From assembly GCA_020279385.1 (NCBI GenBank), contig GCA_020279385.1_4133.1: 51,819 nucleotides of DNA; one strand, 5' to 3'. Origin of the DNA: a phage. Shown here piece after piece: positions 44,080-49,888 of the stretch (positions within the stretch are counted from its first letter, which is position 1; each line of letters begins with the position of its first letter). The notes beneath the pieces were generated by a model. It was not told the origin of the DNA and did not search any database. It worked only from the letters and a program-made list of their open reading frames with translations. A program made the translations under genes and the position numbers.

Positions 44080-46077
44080 ATGATTCCAAATATCGAAAAA
44101 CAAATATCAGCGTTAGGCGAGGCAGTAATAAAAAGCATCCAAGAGCGATTCACGGTTGGCAATATAGTGCCTTATCCTTATCAGTGCGTTGCGTATGCCG
44201 AGATCGCAAAGCGCATGAAAAACTATGAGCATCCTTTCTTTGTTAAGGCTTCTGTGTCGGCTGGCAAAACATTGATGTTTGCGATGGTTGCGGCGCAATG
44301 CCGCAAAATGGGATTGAAAATGATGGTCCTTGCTCGCCAGGCTGAAATTGTTGATCAGGATTCGGAAGAGATCAGCAATCTTGGCGTGCCAAACTCAATC
44401 TATTGCGCCGGACTGAAAACAAAAAGCGCATACTTTCCGATCGTGGTCGGTTCTGAGGGCACTGTAGTAAACGGATTGTTTAAGTCGTTAGGTGATTATG
44501 TTCCGCACGTTATCGGTATTGATGAATGTCACCAGGTGGATTGGGAGGATCTCGCGGACGCGATAGAAAATAATGAATCTTACCAGCAGATGACCACTAA
44601 GAAGGATTTGCCAGTACTGATTGGAGAAGAACAGCAATTTGATTCCAATGGCGATCCAATGTTCGGAACAGGGCGCACACAGTACACCGTAATAATCATG
44701 GAAATGATGCGCAGGTGTCGCGAGGCATACGGGCACGAATTGCGAATATTCGGTATGACTGGATCTGAGTTTCGCGGCGTGGTTCCAATACTGGTTGAAG
44801 ATAAGAACAAAAAGGGATTCTGGCGTGAGCAGGTGACTAACATAGACACAAACTACTTAATCAAATTTGGTTCTGTAGTGCCAACAAATTTCGGCGACGT
44901 AGGCGACCTGGGGTATGACCTTTCAGAGTTCGAAGCCAGTAGCGAGGATGGCGTTTCAGACTTTGACGCTAAAACATTGCGCAAGATGGAAGAAAAGATC
45001 CATCAAGACGCAACAATGACACAGAAAATCATGGCTAAAGTCCATGAGATATGCAAAGACAGGAACGGAGTTTTAGTTACATGCGCAGGGGAAAGACACT
45101 GCAAGGAGGCCGCCGCCGCACTTCCGCCAGGCGTTGAATACAGGATCATAACTGGCAAGACTGGAGACAATCAGCGTAAAGAGTGGCTGAGGGAGGCATA
45201 CGAGGGAAAAGTAAAATACATCTTCCAGGTACAGGCGCTTACCACTGGCGTTAACGTTCCGTTTTGGGATACTTCGGTAATACTGAGAAAGATAGGATCT
45301 CTAACATTGCTTATCCAGCTTTTGGGGCGCGGTATGCGACTGCTTAAGCAATGGCACATTGAGCAGGGATTCAAGAAAAAAGATCATCTTGTATTGGATT
45401 TTGCCGGTACTATGGATGAGTTAGGGGATTTGTATTTCGATCCAATCCTTGAGCAAGCGCAATTCCAAAAGAGATTTACAAACGGGAAAGAGCCTAAGAC
45501 TTGTCCGATATGTGGAACGCTAAACAGCTTTTACGCTCGCCGATGTATGCACGTAGACGATAACAGGAAGAGATGCGAGCATTTTTGGACTTACAGAATT
45601 TGCGAGGACCAGGTAGATCCGAGAACAAAAAAGATAATCAAGCGCGGTTGCGGAACAAAAAACGACGTAGTGGCGAGAGTATGCCGTTGTTGCGATATTT
45701 CTCTTGTCGATCCTAACGAGAAGTTAAGCGGTAAGCACTACACCAAAAACGATTGGTGCAACGTTAAATCTTTCCGCGTTGATATGACGAAAAACCAGAA
45801 AGGAATTATTTTTTGCTATGAGCTTGAGGCCAACGGCGACACGTTCAAGGCATACGAAAGATTTTTTCCTGAGTCAGAAAGCAACATTTGCCGGACGATA
45901 TGGAGAAAAATAGCATTGCAGCACATACCGGATCGCAAGATTGCTGGTATGGTGGCGAGCTATAGAAATGCTCGCAAAATAATGTCATACGCTCATCACA
46001 TCATGCCGCCTGTACGCGTAACGCATCGCAAAAACGGCAAAGGTGAGGATAACATTGCAAAACGGGAGTTTGTTTAA
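44080..46077 (+). CDS. SF2 DNA helicase with C-terminal Cys-rich zinc-ribbon domain
   Basis: Walker A SAGKT; motif II IGIDECHQ; C-terminal CPICG...CRCC. Confidence 0.8.
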   Translation: MIPNIEKQISALGEAVIKSIQERFTVGNIVPYPYQCVAYAEIAKRMKNYEHPFFVKASVSAGKTLMFAMVAAQCRKMGLKMMVLARQAEIVDQDSEEISNLGVPNSIYCAGLKTKSAYFPIVVGSEGTVVNGLFKSLGDYVPHVIGIDECHQVDWEDLADAIENNESYQQMTTKKDLPVLIGEEQQFDSNGDPMFGTGRTQYTVIIMEMMRRCREAYGHELRIFGMTGSEFRGVVPILVEDKNKKGFWREQVTNIDTNYLIKFGSVVPTNFGDVGDLGYDLSEFEASSEDGVSDFDAKTLRKMEEKIHQDATMTQKIMAKVHEICKDRNGVLVTCAGERHCKEAAAALPPGVEYRIITGKTGDNQRKEWLREAYEGKVKYIFQVQALTTGVNVPFWDTSVILRKIGSLTLLIQLLGRGMRLLKQWHIEQGFKKKDHLVLDFAGTMDELGDLYFDPILEQAQFQKRFTNGKEPKTCPICGTLNSFYARRCMHVDDNRKRCEHFWTYRICEDQVDPRTKKIIKRGCGTKNDVVARVCRCCDISLVDPNEKLSGKHYTKNDWCNVKSFRVDMTKNQKGIIFCYELEANGDTFKAYERFFPESESNICRTIWRKIALQHIPDRKIAGMVASYRNARKIMSYAHHIMPPVRVTHRKNGKGEDNIAKREFV

Positions 46078-46496
46078 TGGCTATAACTGATAAAGGAGAT
46101 TATCTTGAGTTTTACGAAAGAGATCCAACAGACACGAGAAAGGAAGTTAATCACCAGATAGATAGTTTTCAGTGGTTGACTTATGCTCATCCTTACTTGC
46201 TGGCGTGGCATACGGTAAACGAGAATGAGAAGTCGAAAGTAACGGCGATGATTGATCAGCAGTCCGGCTTGGTTAAGGGGGTAAGCGATTTCATCATCCT
46301 GATTGGTTCAAACGGAAAATACCCCTTTGCAGCGATTGAGATCAAACGAGTGAATAAATCAGGCAAGGGGAAAGCATCACCAGTCAGCGATGAACAAAAG
46401 GCTTTTTTGCGTCGCGTTCGCAGCTTAGGAGGATTCGCTGCGGTCGCCTACGGATTTAATCAGTTTAAGTTAGCTATTGAATACATGCTTAAATAG
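46077..46496 (+). CDS. VRR-NUC domain nuclease
   Basis: DFIILIG...AAIEIKR (D..ExK core); ATG overlaps helicase stop. Confidence 0.6.
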   Translation: MAITDKGDYLEFYERDPTDTRKEVNHQIDSFQWLTYAHPYLLAWHTVNENEKSKVTAMIDQQSGLVKGVSDFIILIGSNGKYPFAAIEIKRVNKSGKGKASPVSDEQKAFLRRVRSLGGFAAVAYGFNQFKLAIEYMLK

Positions 46497-46512: not shown

Positions 46513-46576
46513 TGGCGCGATGGATTGCGCCATAATTCAATAACACGAGATGGCTTTTAATAGCGGAGAAATGAAA

Positions 46577-47302
46577 ATGGCTAAAGATATTTTAGATAAA
46601 GACACCCATGACGCATTCGTTAGCTTTGAGCAGTTGGAGAGAGAAACGTTTATAGGAAATGCTCTTGCAACTGGAGGCCATTACCAGGCAGTAAAGCCAA
46701 ATCAATATTATAAGGTAAGCGGCAACCGATACGCTGGAAGCACTACGCCGGACGTTGTGCGCGATATGTGGAGCACACCTCAAGAGATCGTGGAGTGGAT
46801 GGAATCAGAATTTGGCGAATACGATCTCGACGCGGCAGCAAGCCAGGAAAACGCAGTTTGCGAGAAGTTCTACAGCAAGGAAACAAACTGCTTAAAGCGT
46901 TGGTGGGGTAGCAACAAGCACGTATGGCTTAACCCGCCGTACAGCAACCCAACTCCATTTATCAAGAAAGCAATTGAGCAAATGGAGCACAACAACCAAA
47001 TTGATGTTTTGTTGCCATCCGACAACTCTACAGCATGGTTTTATGAGGCGCAGAAAAACGCGGCTGAAATTATCTGGATCACTGGCGAGGTTTACGAAGA
47101 GGGTGGAGTAGAATACTCCCGCACCGGAAGAATTGCCTTTGTGTCTGGATTGACTGGTGAGCCTGTGCAGGGCAACAACAAGGGAAGCGTGATTTTTGTC
47201 ATGCGCAAACTTAAAGAAGGCGAGGAGCAGAAAACGCGATACGTTAAGATCAGCGATATTTGCCCTTCTGTAACCGAACGTCGCGCACGCAAACGGAGCT
47301 AA
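46577..47302 (+). CDS. dam: DNA N6-adenine methyltransferase (Dam-like)
   Basis: NPPY motif (WLNPPYSNP); alternative ATG at 46571. Confidence 0.7.
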   Translation: MAKDILDKDTHDAFVSFEQLERETFIGNALATGGHYQAVKPNQYYKVSGNRYAGSTTPDVVRDMWSTPQEIVEWMESEFGEYDLDAAASQENAVCEKFYSKETNCLKRWWGSNKHVWLNPPYSNPTPFIKKAIEQMEHNNQIDVLLPSDNSTAWFYEAQKNAAEIIWITGEVYEEGGVEYSRTGRIAFVSGLTGEPVQGNNKGSVIFVMRKLKEGEEQKTRYVKISDICPSVTERRARKRS

Positions 47303-47306
47303 CACG

Positions 47307-47564
47307 ATGGAAAAAGAGAGAAGCGTTTATTTAAATGAAACTGGCGAGTGGTTGTTATTTCGCGCTATGGTGTGCGATGCACTTGATAAAAACCCTAACG
47401 TGAAAAAGATGATTGATTGCGATCCGTGGGAATTTTCAAGCGCATTAGATATGAGCTTTGAGGAGACAAGAAAACTCCCGCTTGAAAAATGGCACGAACA
47501 AATCAGAAATGACATGCAAGAGTTTGTCGATTCGTGGAATTTTCAGCACGGAATGATCCACTAA
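47307..47564 (+). CDS. Hypothetical protein (85 aa)
   Basis: ORF with ATG start. Confidence 0.5.
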   Translation: MEKERSVYLNETGEWLLFRAMVCDALDKNPNVKKMIDCDPWEFSSALDMSFEETRKLPLEKWHEQIRNDMQEFVDSWNFQHGMIH

Positions 47565-47583: not shown

Positions 47584-47639
47584 GCCCGGCCTAGTGTCGG
47601 GCATAATTATTTCAACGAAGCAAACATGAGGAAATAAAA

Positions 47640-47819: not shown

Positions 47820-48051
47820 GCAAGGAAGAGATGCGGTATGGAATCACGCTAAAGAATGCGGTATTGCCGACGATATAAAGAAGATCGCGCAATACTTTGA
47901 TATTGCAGATGTGAGCATAATTAGCGGCGATAAGATGACTTTCCTCAAGGAAAGGCCGCGAAAAATGGTAAGAGTTCCAGCAGTTCCAACAAAAATTGAT
48001 TTCAAATCTGTAATCGACAGCAGCAGAGAGCAAAGGAAAAGATTTAAATGA
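47809..48051 (+). CDS. Hypothetical protein (80 aa)
   Basis: Track ORF starts at TTG; internal ATG 47809 preceded by GCGGAGG. Confidence 0.45.
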   Translation: MKVEQGRDAVWNHAKECGIADDIKKIAQYFDIADVSIISGDKMTFLKERPRKMVRVPAVPTKIDFKSVIDSSREQRKRFK

Positions 48052-48533
48052 TAAATTGGAGTGATTATTTTGAATATAGAAATGGAATACTTTACTGGAA
48101 AGTAAGGAGAAATGGGAGAAATGGAGGAGTCAAACCTGGAGACGTTGCAGGGTGCAAAAATGAATATGGATATGTTTTAATAGGATTTAATGGAAAACTG
48201 CACTACAGACATTCAATAGTTTGGGAAATGCACAACGGTAAGATTCCAGAAGGATTTGTCATAGATCATAAAAACCCCGTTTGTGATGGAGAGGAGGCTA
48301 ATGACAATATCGACAACCTTAGAATAATACGTCATTCAGACAACCTTAGAAAAGGTTGCGGTAGAGTTAGAAAAAGCAATACAAGCGGAATAACTGGCGT
48401 TATGTATAATAAAAGAGATGATCTATGGGTAGCTTCAATATGCGTAAACTCAAATAGAATATCAAAATCATTCAAATCAATGGATGATGCTATAAATCAG
48501 AGGATGATTTGGGAATCAGAATACATAAAATGA
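48048..48533 (+). CDS. HNH homing endonuclease with AP2-like DNA-binding region
   Basis: MINWSDYFEYRNGILYWK N-terminus, HNH residues (IDHKNPVCDG..N); paralog of 2946-3473. Confidence 0.7.
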   Translation: MINWSDYFEYRNGILYWKVRRNGRNGGVKPGDVAGCKNEYGYVLIGFNGKLHYRHSIVWEMHNGKIPEGFVIDHKNPVCDGEEANDNIDNLRIIRHSDNLRKGCGRVRKSNTSGITGVMYNKRDDLWVASICVNSNRISKSFKSMDDAINQRMIWESEYIK

Positions 48534-48627
48534 GGATAGTTATCATGTGGCGCTTGTTTGTTCTACCGTTACCCGTTATCATCGCTGTTACAGTTATGTA
48601 CCATATAGTGATGAGATAGGTAGCAGA

Positions 48628-49743
48628 ATGAAAAATGTAAAAATTACAGATGAGCAATTCAAGATCGAACGGGCGGCGGGTAAGACATATAAACAGATCG
48701 CTCAAGAGTACGGAATGAATGTTAGAAGCGTCGAGCGTCGCGCGGCGCGTCTTGCAAAGCAAGGCCAGGTATCCACCATTGGAGCGCCTGGTTTTGGAGT
48801 TCATGGTGAGTCAGTAATGACTGACAAAGAAGGCAACATAATCCTAAAGTGGACTAAAACCAGCAAGGATAAAGAGCAATTAGAAGCATTAATGCGCGCA
48901 GCAATGGAGGCATTTAGCGAGGAAGTGCCGCGATTAGATCCGGTCCCATTACAGGAGCGCGACTATAACGAAACGCTTTCTTTGTATCCGATCTTTGACA
49001 TGCACTTAGGCGCTATGGCCCATAAGCACGAATGCGGCGAAAATTGGGATACTGCCACGGCAGAGCGCGTTATGAATAACTTTATCGACTATGCTTTAAT
49101 GTGCGCACCGGATAGCGAAAAGGCTGTCATCCTGATTGGTGGCGATATGCTGCATAGCGACGGCCTGGAGGCGGTTACACCTGCAAGCGGTCACGTACTG
49201 GATCAAGATAGTCGATATGCAAAATTGGTTTACGTTGCCATCCGTGCAATGCGACGCGCAATCAATAAAATGTTGTTAAAGCATAAACATGTTGAAGTCC
49301 AGATCGTAGAGGGAAATCATGACCAATCAGGAATGATTTGGCTACGCGCAGCGATGGCGGCAGCATATGAGAACGAGCCGCGCGTTTACGTTGATGTTTC
49401 TCCTCGCGTTGTTCACCACACGCAATACGGAAAAACTTTCCTTGCGTACCATCACGGGCACACAGTGCGTAAACCTGAGACTTTGCTAATGATGTGCGCG
49501 TCAGATTGGCGGGAGGACTTCGGAAACTCAAAAACGATGTATGCGCACGTAGGGCACTGGCATCACCAGACCGTAACAGAAACGTCGCTTGGCATCGTGG
49601 AGGTGCATAGCACCCTGGCGGCAAAAGACGCATACGCCGCGCGAGGTGGCTGGAGATCTCGACGCCGTGCGGCGGTTATCATTTACGACAAAGAGCATGG
49701 AGAAGTCGGGCGATTTGTTCACTATCCAGAAATGATGAATTGA
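48628..49743 (+). CDS. Metallophosphoesterase (calcineurin-like) with N-terminal HTH
   Basis: Motifs DMHLG, GGDMLHSDG, GNHD, HHGH, GHWHH; N-terminal HTH KTYKQIAQEYGMNVRSVERRAARL. Confidence 0.6.
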   Translation: MKNVKITDEQFKIERAAGKTYKQIAQEYGMNVRSVERRAARLAKQGQVSTIGAPGFGVHGESVMTDKEGNIILKWTKTSKDKEQLEALMRAAMEAFSEEVPRLDPVPLQERDYNETLSLYPIFDMHLGAMAHKHECGENWDTATAERVMNNFIDYALMCAPDSEKAVILIGGDMLHSDGLEAVTPASGHVLDQDSRYAKLVYVAIRAMRRAINKMLLKHKHVEVQIVEGNHDQSGMIWLRAAMAAAYENEPRVYVDVSPRVVHHTQYGKTFLAYHHGHTVRKPETLLMMCASDWREDFGNSKTMYAHVGHWHHQTVTETSLGIVEVHSTLAAKDAYAARGGWRSRRRAAVIIYDKEHGEVGRFVHYPEMMN

Positions 49744-49789
49744 TGAATTTTTATTTAAATCAATGACAAATTAAATCAAAAACTTGCAA

Positions 49790-49819
49790 AGGGGCGGCGT
49801 TTGTCGCCTCTTTTTTTTG
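49790..49819 (+). terminator. Rho-independent terminator
   Basis: ggggcggcgtttgtcgcctc plus T8. Confidence 0.6.
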
Positions 49820-49888
49820 TTTAATTTTTTACCATGTGCGTTTATCATGCGGTCAATATATTGACTTTAATTAATATGGAGAATAAAA

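What the first reader, a model, noticed from the sequence alone, without database searches (positions are those of the whole stretch)
48628..49743. Metallophosphoesterase fused to an N-terminal HTH beside the lysis cassette
All the calcineurin-like phosphoesterase metal-binding motifs are present (DxH, GDxxH.D, GNHD, HGH, GHxH) after a helix-turn-helix module. This could be an SbcD/Mre11-like DNA nuclease, a protein phosphatase, or a phosphodiesterase that degrades host signalling nucleotides as an anti-defence measure. I cannot tell which from sequence alone.
Basis: partly seen in the sequence, partly recalled or inferred. Interest (0 to 1): 0.5.

Follow-up and report, generated by a model that had tools for sequence, protein, structure and literature searches.

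The report
HTH-tethered Mre11-like phage phosphoesterase
This T1-like coliphage gene encodes a DNA-binding helix-turn-helix fused to an intact two-metal phosphoesterase that most resembles the Mre11/SbcD DNA nucleases; it belongs to a very common phage family that databases already label "phosphoesterase / DNA repair exonuclease", but I found no experimental study of it.

Summary
Window 48628-49743 (+) is a real 371-aa gene, 100% identical to the "putative phosphoesterase" of Escherichia phage tunzivis and orthologous to T1 ST16. It has an N-terminal three-helix HTH, a conserved beta-hairpin plus helix, and a metallophosphoesterase (MPE) domain. All metal-ligand motifs are invariant across relatives about 30% identical to it.

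It belongs to PHROG 704, found in 2042 phage records and 5288 clusters at 50% identity. No paper I could search characterises any member.

- Motifs I and II (DxHLG, GDxxH) are the Mre11/SbcD type.
- The best profile and fold matches with long alignments are T4 gp47, SbcD, Mre11 and the PolD DP1 exonuclease.
- The HTH is kept in nearly all family representatives examined.
- In its closest relatives the gene sits inside replication/recombination modules.

It is not a canonical Mre11/SbcD: it has no capping domain and no Rad50/SbcC partner.

The lysis-cassette adjacency recurs elsewhere. Here, however, a strong terminator (49788-49813), also annotated in T1, separates the gene from the holin.

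A cyclic-nucleotide phosphodiesterase or a protein phosphatase is disfavoured but not excluded. This is an ordinary, already catalogued gene of moderate interest because its function is unknown.

The parts
48628..49743 (+). Gene for the 371-aa HTH-metallophosphoesterase (PHROG 704; orthologue of T1 ST16 and SECphi27 gp05)
   Evidence: ORF. PHROG 704 E 5.4e-149. 100% identical to the phage tunzivis 'putative phosphoesterase'. T1 and SECphi27 orthologues are annotated 'DNA repair exonuclease'.
48649..48759 (+). N-terminal helix-turn-helix (aa 8-44), LuxR/GerE/sigma-70 region 4-like
   Evidence: Sub-threshold Pfam HTH hits. Homologues reach E 1.5e-9. A family profile hits GerE and RhlR HTHs in the PDB. 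AF2 gives three helices. 144 of 147 family representatives have at least 60 residues before the conserved Trp.
48799..48918 (+). Conserved beta-hairpin (aa 58-78, with S62, G69, W75, K77) plus helix (aa 80-97) linking the HTH to the catalytic domain
   Evidence: AF2 secondary structure. G69 95% and W75 97% conserved in 148 sequences. S62, G69 and W75 invariant in A4.
48967..49740 (+). Metallophosphoesterase catalytic domain (aa 114-371). Motif I at 48997-49005, motif II at 49138-49161, family-specific loop TPxSGHxLDxDxR at 49177-49215, motif III at 49312-49323, motif IV at 49453-49461, motif V at 49552-49566
49788..49823 (+). Intrinsic-terminator-like hairpin (11-bp stem, 6 G-C pairs) plus T-run, between the gene and the holin
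   Evidence: Flanking A/T-rich inverted repeat 49768-49782 / 49813-49827. T1 has an annotated rho-independent terminator directly after its orthologue ST16.
48048..48533 (+). HNH-type homing endonuclease immediately upstream. It is a variable insertion and not part of the enzyme
   Evidence: Most relatives match the query only from position 129 (window ~48528) onward, whereas EC167 and mar001J1 match throughout. PADLOC HEase models, E 5e-8.

Best explanation
The gene encodes an active two-metal phosphodiesterase of the nuclease branch of the calcineurin-like superfamily (Mre11/SbcD/PolD-DP1-like). It is held on DNA by its own N-terminal helix-turn-helix instead of by a Rad50/SbcC partner.

It is the last gene of the helicase / VRR-NUC / Dam early-middle gene block. 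It most likely cuts or trims DNA during the replication phase. Two sub-roles are possible: processing ends or structured intermediates of phage replication and recombination, or helping to break down the host chromosome for nucleotide supply.

What is shown: the domain architecture, the intact active site, the fold, family membership, and the genomic contexts.

What is inferred: that the substrate is DNA, that the HTH binds DNA, that the operon ends at the terminator, and which of the two sub-roles applies. I put roughly 0.3 on phage DNA processing and 0.25 on host DNA degradation within the overall 0.55.
For: - Active site: all metal-ligand motifs are present and invariant across the family.
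- Motif type: motif I 'FDMHLG' and motif II 'GGDMLHSD' (family consensus TDxHxGM, LGDFLHxDG). That DxHLG / GDxxH is the Mre11/SbcD form is established knowledge recalled from memory. It is consistent with the T. maritima Mre11 alignment 'sDwHLG ... GDllHs'.
- Profile comparison: hhalign of the family against T4 gp47 (SbcD-like) aligns 185 columns through all five motifs, probability 65%, E 5.9e-5.
- HTH: retained in 144 of 147 representatives; longer variants simply add a second HTH.
- Context in the closest relatives is a replication/recombination module. In mEp010: O-like initiator | MPE | HNH | DnaB. In an E. coli prophage: Lin1244_N | ANT | MPE | DnaB. In Salmonella ST44: MPE | primase | helicase | PDDEXK | ERF | SSB. 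In an Edwardsiella podovirus: exonuclease | endo VII | MPE | a gene annotated dNMP kinase (no Pfam hit) | DNA ligase.
- In this window and in T1 the gene follows helicase, VRR-NUC and Dam on the same strand, and is followed by a terminator.
- Precedents for partner-less phage MPEs that degrade host DNA: T5 A1 (bioRxiv 10.64898/2026.04.02.716235) and mycobacteriophage A10ZJ24 gp48 (PMC12287305).
- T1 is reported to degrade the host chromosome (references cited in PMC11447400).
Against: - No biochemical or genetic data for any family member turned up in six literature searches.
- Sequence links to characterised nucleases fall below significance: PDB profile search gives Mre11 E 0.13 and nuclease MPE E 0.96; TIGR04123 PdeM scores 16.5 bits against a cut-off of 150.
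- There is no capping domain and no Rad50/SbcC gene.
- The family also occurs in temperate phages, where host DNA degradation is not expected.
- Contexts in more distant members are heterogeneous: next to lysis genes, next to terminase, or in nin-like regions.
- The link to T5 A1 is weak (hhalign probability 17-24%, separate PHROG).
Confidence: 0.55

Rival explanations
1. Anti-defence phosphodiesterase. The MPE domain hydrolyses host immune signalling nucleotides (cyclic mono-, di- or oligonucleotides, or cADPR-type signals). The HTH is incidental or regulatory.
Against: - No match to any PADLOC model, and no literature support.
- A DNA-binding HTH conserved across the family has no obvious role for a small-molecule enzyme.
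- Motif II is of the nuclease type (GDxxH).
- The gene behaves as a syntenic core gene of replication modules rather than as a variable accessory gene.
- From memory, known phage signal-degrading enzymes use other folds (Acb1, Apyc1, ring nucleases).
Confidence: 0.08
2. DNA-binding regulator or replisome organiser. The HTH is the main functional part (late-gene or replication control, or bridging initiator and helicase as the MPE-fold B-subunits of replicative polymerases do). The MPE domain serves mainly as a scaffold or sensor.
For: - The gene often sits at the early/late boundary, next to lysis or terminase genes.
- In mEp010-like prophages it sits exactly between the O-like initiator and DnaB.
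- Polymerase B-subunits and DP1 are among the best fold matches.
- The HTH is sigma-70 region 4/LuxR-like.
Against: - Every catalytic residue is invariant over about 30%-identity divergence, unlike the inactivated B-subunits and Vps29.
- The HTH sequence is the least conserved part of the protein.
- Some members lack it altogether (Campylobacter phage F371, 317 aa; P0126, P0202).
- T1-like phages carry a separate annotated regulator.
Confidence: 0.12
3. Protein Ser/Thr/Tyr phosphatase, analogous to lambda NinI (lambda-PP), acting on host or phage phosphoproteins.
For: Some database records annotate family members as 'serine/threonine protein phosphatase' (Salmonella vB_SenS-Ent3). In temperate relatives the gene lies in nin-like regions near NinB and NinG, where lambda carries NinI (the lambda gene order is from memory).
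Confidence: 0.05
4. Late-acting, lysis-associated nuclease. It degrades residual host or unpackaged DNA just before lysis and is functionally coupled to the lysis cassette.
For: Lysis genes lie within about three genes of the MPE in 10 of about 18 inspected contexts from unrelated phage groups: this window, L047, L048, Bas85, RcMrWorf, L057, L058, Yersinia 126, Rhizobium Y21 and Vibrio 92E46-1.
Against: - Here and in T1 a terminator separates the gene from the lysis genes. In T1 an HNH gene and another ORF also intervene.
- The closest relatives outside Drexlerviridae place it in replication modules far from lysis genes.
- In 24 dereplicated metagenomic loci, only about 5-6 had a recognisable lysis enzyme among the +/-3 neighbours.
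Confidence: 0.1

Closest known systems
Mre11 / SbcD / T4 gp47 nucleases (MPE subunit of the Mre11-Rad50 / SbcCD complex)
   Different: No capping domain: the protein ends 59 residues after motif V. No Rad50-binding tail. No Rad50/SbcC/gp46 gene in the phage. An N-terminal HTH and beta-hairpin take their place. A conserved loop TPxSGHxLDxDxR follows motif II. It is a separate PHROG (704, against PHROG 100 for gp47). It does not reach any SbcD or Mre11 family threshold.
Archaeal PolD small subunit DP1 (MPE 3'-5' exonuclease) and the eukaryotic polymerase B-subunits
   Different: No OB-fold domain and no partner polymerase; T1-like phages encode no DNA polymerase. Only 14% identity. B-subunits are catalytically dead, whereas this protein keeps all ligands.
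Phage T5 A1 (pre-early metallophosphatase, essential and sufficient for host DNA degradation) with its DNA-binding partner A2
   Same: A partner-less phage MPE with the same motif set (DIH, HDVHD, SNHD..S.WL, HGH, GHTH). Divergent A1 homologues start with sequences that look HTH-like by eye (not tested against HTH models). Function could be analogous: a DNA-binding module plus an MPE.
   Different: Homology is not established beyond the superfamily level: hhalign probability 17-24% and a confident alignment only around motif III. Separate PHROG 1745 with no cross-hit. A1 is 556 aa with a long unrelated N-terminal half, and it is a pre-early gene.
Mycobacteriophage A10ZJ24 Gp48 (cluster A metallophosphoesterase)
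   Same: A phage MPE with the five motifs, shown to have phosphodiesterase activity and to disrupt host genomic DNA (PMC12287305).
   Different: I had no sequence to compare. No HTH is described for it. It comes from a different host and phage group, so any relationship to PHROG 704 is untested.
Pseudomonas nuclease MPE / PdeM (ligase-associated DNA damage response)
   Same: A small stand-alone MPE nuclease. Weak sequence echoes around motif III (TIGR04123 E 0.0043; PDB 6nvo E 0.96).

Membership tests
Calcineurin-like metallophosphoesterase superfamily | Five ordered metal-ligand motifs (DxH, GDxx[D/H], GNH[D/E], H, GHxH) | tested here: met
   D124xH126, GD173xxH176, GN230H231D232, H276GH278 and GH310xH312 are all present. 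0 of 200,000 shuffles reproduce the pattern. The residues are invariant in the family.
Calcineurin-like metallophosphoesterase superfamily | Beta-sandwich MPE fold | tested here: met
Calcineurin-like metallophosphoesterase superfamily | Pfam PF00149 gathering score | tested here: not met
   16.8 bits against a cut-off of 21.5 for this protein. Only 18 of 65 family members match at E<0.01. The family is divergent, so this failure does not outweigh the fold and motif evidence.
PHROG 704 ('DNA repair exonuclease') | Full-length match to the family profile | tested here: met
   E 5.4e-149, residues 5-370 on profile positions 3-389 of 390. Distant members from Rhodobacter, Burkholderia and Campylobacter phages hit the same PHROG.
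Mre11/SbcD nuclease family | Mre11-type motif I (DxHLG) and motif II (GDxxH) | tested here: met
   FDMHLG and GGDMLHSD. They align to T. maritima Mre11 'sDwHLG ... GDllHs' and, with the motif II His not aligned, to T4 gp47.
Mre11/SbcD nuclease family | Significant sequence match to curated SbcD/Mre11 models or solved chains | tested here: not met
   No Pfam or NCBIfam SbcD/Mre11 hit. Best PDB profile hit is E 0.13. hhalign to gp47 reaches only 65% probability.
Mre11/SbcD nuclease family | C-terminal capping domain and Rad50/SbcC-binding region | tested here: not met
Mre11/SbcD nuclease family | Rad50/SbcC-type ATPase partner encoded alongside | tested here: not met
   No such gene is annotated in the near-identical SECphi27 genome or in T1, nor next to the gene in any inspected context.
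Mre11/SbcD nuclease family | Mn2+-dependent endo/exonuclease activity on DNA | not testable with these tools
   Requires biochemistry.
T5 A1 family (PHROG 1745, host-DNA-degrading metallophosphatase) | Profile-level homology to A1 | tested here: not met
   A1 hits only PHROG 1745. hhalign of the family against A1, or against an A1 alignment, gives probability 17-24%, confident over 30-57 columns around motif III.
PPP protein phosphatases (lambda-PP/NinI, calcineurin) | GDxHG, GDxVDRG and GNHE motifs, and close fold similarity | tested here: not met
Class III cyclic-nucleotide phosphodiesterases (CpdA/Icc/Rv0805) | Family-level sequence match and cNMP hydrolysis | tested here: inconclusive
PdeM / nuclease MPE (TIGR04123) | Curated model cut-off | tested here: not met

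The most novel reading that the evidence does not exclude
PHROG 704 proteins are self-targeting, Rad50-independent Mre11-like nucleases, and a widespread, unrecognised core component of phage DNA metabolism. Two versions fit the evidence. (a) It is the factor behind the classical T1 host-chromosome-degradation phenotype, a functional analogue of T5 A1+A2 fused into one polypeptide. (b) It is a DP1-like exonuclease that sits between initiator and helicase and trims or proofreads DNA for phages that borrow the host polymerase.
Probability: 0.2. Interest if true: 0.6.

Novelty: new variant of a known kind. Interest (0 to 1): 0.35.

Why it matters
The family is present in more than 2000 sequenced phages: Drexlerviridae, Jerseyvirus, Dhillonvirus-like phages, Casjensviridae, some Autographiviridae, Campylobacter and Vibrio phages, and E. 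coli and Burkholderia prophages. It includes model and therapy-candidate phages such as T1, SECphi27 and the BASEL set. Yet it carries only an automatic label.

If it is a DNA-tethered Mre11-type nuclease that works without Rad50, three things follow:
- It would define a new minimal architecture for this enzyme class.
- It could identify the nuclease behind T1-type host DNA breakdown, which bears on generalised transduction and on defence systems that sense DNA degradation products.
- It would be a conserved target for phage engineering.

If it turns out to be ordinary end-processing, the practical gain is a corrected annotation for a very common gene.

Tried and rejected
1. T5 A1 homology. 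I built an A1 alignment from 12 viral contigs and ran hhalign in local and near-global modes. Only motifs III-V and the C-terminal tail line up, at probability 17-24%. I keep it as an analogy, not as homology.

3. Obligatory coupling to the lysis cassette or to terminase. Contexts are heterogeneous, and a terminator intervenes here and in T1. Rejected as a rule, kept as a minor rival.

4. Defence-system relative. PADLOC gave no hit.

5. Search for operator-like repeats around the gene. Only short, chance-level repeats and the terminator stem were found.

6. Literature. Seven searches and eight papers read, covering Drexlerviridae, SECphi27, T1 host degradation, phage MPEs, Metis, PUA-Cal-HAD, Druantia/Zorya and anthracyclines. 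None gave experimental data on this family.

7. Mapping to classical T1 gene 2.5 (host-DNA-degradation mutants). This could not be resolved from the available text. My recollection of the genetic map leaves ST16 as one of several candidates.

8. A family-wide locus search with the 65-sequence alignment failed because no stretch was conserved enough. I replaced it with a sub-clade alignment.

Full report
**What the window is.** The window is essentially a complete genome of a T1-like coliphage (Drexlerviridae, Tempevirinae, Warwickvirus-like). The region around the finding is 96-99% identical to many such phages, and the gene order matches SECphi27 and T1.

**Checking the observation.**
- The ORF at 48628-49743 (+) encodes 371 aa.
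- A longer frame starts at GTG 48547 and is used in one database cluster (P0001, 398 aa). Most of the 120 listed homologues are 370-380 aa and align from the ATG.
- The protein is 100% identical to the 'putative phosphoesterase' of phage tunzivis. It is orthologous to SECphi27 gp05 and T1 ST16, both labelled 'DNA repair exonuclease' in RefSeq.
- The ordered pattern arose in 0 of 200,000 shuffles.
- The ligand residues are invariant in alignments reaching about 30% identity.
- Pfam scores for this protein are below threshold (Metallophos 16.8 against 21.5 bits; Sigma70_r4_2 E 0.0018).
- The HTH is still well supported. Homologues hit HTH families convincingly (Sigma70_r4_2 1.5e-9, GerE 2.4e-8, HTH_1 4.3e-6). 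A family profile finds GerE and RhlR HTHs in the PDB. AlphaFold2 gives a three-helix HTH at residues 8-44.

**Anatomy.** With a 142-sequence alignment the model reaches mean pLDDT 85.8. The parts are:
- HTH, residues 8-44.
- A short disordered linker.
- A beta-hairpin, residues 58-78, carrying the conserved S62, G69, W75 and K77.
- A helix, residues 80-96.
- A compact MPE beta-sandwich, residues about 114-371.
- A family-specific and highly conserved loop after motif II: T184-P-x-S-G-H-x-L191-D192-x-D194-x-R196.

The protein ends 59 residues after motif V, so there is no Mre11-type capping domain.

**The family.**
- PHROG 704 matches at E 5e-149.
- A full HMMER scan of 1.84 billion representatives finds 5288 clusters (1328 at E<1e-30), nearly all 370-420 aa.
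- tblastn finds the protein in 2042 phage records. These include Escherichia, Klebsiella, Salmonella, Vibrio, Campylobacter, Rhodobacter and Flavobacterium phages, from several families.
- 144 of 147 top representatives keep an N-terminal domain.
- Longer variants simply carry a second HTH.
- A few lack the HTH, for example Campylobacter phage F371 at 317 aa.
- No PDB chain is a significant sequence match.
- Six literature searches found no experimental work on any member.

**Which kind of phosphoesterase.**
- Fold search confirms the MPE fold but spreads across subfamilies.
- Other classes score lower: Rv0805 12.2, GpdQ 12.0, PP5 9.8, Pnkp phosphatase 8.8 (similar).
- At sequence level the only MPE chains that surface are T. 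maritima Mre11/SbcD (E 0.13, aligned through 'DwHLG' and 'GDllHs') and the Pseudomonas nuclease MPE.
- hhalign of the family against T4 gp47 aligns all five motifs (probability 65%, E 5.9e-5).
- Motif II with His (GDxxH) and motif I DxHLG are, from established knowledge, the Mre11/SbcD form.
- PPP phosphatase motifs are absent.
- Taken together with an attached DNA-binding module, a DNA phosphodiesterase is the best-supported chemistry. It is an inference, not a demonstration.

**Not a canonical Mre11/SbcD.** There is no capping domain and no Rad50-binding region. No SbcC/Rad50/gp46 gene is present in SECphi27 or T1 or beside the gene in any context inspected. It therefore works like an Mre11-type nuclease at best, and it fails the membership tests.

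**Genomic context in this window and in T1.**
- The gene follows helicase (44080-46077), VRR-NUC (46077-46496), Dam methylase (46550-47302), small ORFs and a variable HNH homing endonuclease (48048-48533).
- It is followed by an 11-bp-stem terminator-like hairpin with a T-run (49788-49823).
- T1 has an annotated rho-independent terminator at the same place after ST16. There, an HNH gene and a small ORF also separate it from the holin.
- So the gene closes the replication-side gene block and is probably not co-transcribed with the lysis cassette.

**Genomic context in other phages.**
- The closest relatives outside Drexlerviridae (64-66% identity) place it inside replication/recombination modules.
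- In mEp010 the order is CI | Cro | O-like | MPE | HNH | DnaB | NinB.
- In a common E. coli prophage it is Lin1244_N | ANT | MPE | DnaB.
- In Salmonella ST44 it is MPE | primase | helicase | PDDEXK | ERF | SSB.
- In an Edwardsiella podovirus it follows an exonuclease and endonuclease VII. It precedes a gene annotated as dNMP kinase (no Pfam hit) and a DNA ligase.
- In more distant members (about 40% identity) it is often the last gene after the lysis genes, or just before the terminase, or in nin-like regions.
- A Pfam count over the +/-3 neighbours of 24 dereplicated metagenomic loci is heterogeneous.
- Lysis adjacency is therefore recurrent (about 10 of 18 hand-inspected contexts) but not a rule.

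**Role.** Two sub-roles fit.
- Processing of phage replication or recombination intermediates. This is supported by the replication-module contexts and by presence in temperate phages.
- Contribution to host chromosome breakdown and nucleotide salvage. T1 degrades host DNA (references in PMC11447400). T5 A1 (bioRxiv 10.64898/2026.04.02.716235) and mycobacteriophage Gp48 (PMC12287305) are precedents for partner-less phage MPEs that destroy host DNA.

T5 A1 shares the motif set, and its divergent homologues start with sequences that look HTH-like by eye. Profile comparison does not establish specific homology.

**Rivals.**
- A signalling-nucleotide phosphodiesterase is not excluded structurally but has no positive evidence.
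- A protein phosphatase is unlikely.
- A purely regulatory or scaffolding role is contradicted by the invariant active site.

**Verdict.** The gene is an already catalogued, very common phage gene whose architecture (an HTH-tethered, Rad50-less Mre11-like MPE) is an uncharacterised variant of a known enzyme kind. Interest is moderate: the family is large and unstudied, and the experiments are straightforward, but nothing here is very surprising to a specialist.

Noticed in passing
window 48048-48533 (+): An HNH-type homing endonuclease sits directly upstream of the phosphoesterase gene. It is present in EC167 and mar001J1 but absent from most near-identical relatives, which align only from about 48528 onward. 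Homing endonuclease genes also flank the orthologous gene in T1 (ST15), mEp010 (L146), Salmonella SeF1 (L049), a Vibrio phage (L061) and metagenomic loci L056 and L057. The gene therefore looks like a recurrent homing target.
   Followed up: partly
window 47584-47602 (+) and 51286-51268 (-): Nearly the same terminator-like hairpin (GCCCGGCCTAGTGTCGGGC/T) occurs twice, on opposite strands. One copy follows the 85-aa ORF at 47307-47564, and the other lies beyond the lysis cassette.
   Followed up: no
L001:14672-15208 (SECphi27 gp33; T1 ST64 equivalent): The gene annotated 'polynucleotide kinase' in T1-like phages matches only the HAD-type PNKP 3'-phosphatase domain (PF25109, E 1.6e-20). No kinase domain is detected. 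The Yersinia phage neighbour of the MPE (L059:5220-5678) is the same.
   Followed up: partly
L040, L042, L044, L045 (IMG/VR contigs) and L002:1706-3376 (T5 A1): The C-terminal half of T5 A1 carries the same five-motif set (DIH, HDVHD, SNHD, HGH, GHTH). Its 40-49%-identical metagenomic homologues begin with HTH-like sequences by eye (not tested against HTH models). This hints that A1-type host-DNA-degrading enzymes may also be HTH-MPE proteins.
   Followed up: partly
window 48547-48627: An in-frame GTG 27 codons upstream gives a 398-aa ORF, and one database cluster uses it (P0001). Conservation supports the ATG at 48628, so the longer form is probably a start-site mis-call.
   Followed up: yes
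L147:1-1416 (Salmonella phage ST44/ST65): The large terminase gene carries intein/homing-endonuclease domains (Hom_end_hint, LAGLIDADG) inside Terminase_3.
   Followed up: no
window 49768-49827: The terminator stem after the gene is embedded in a longer A/T-rich inverted repeat (49768-49782 / 49813-49827). The structure could terminate transcription in both directions.
   Followed up: no
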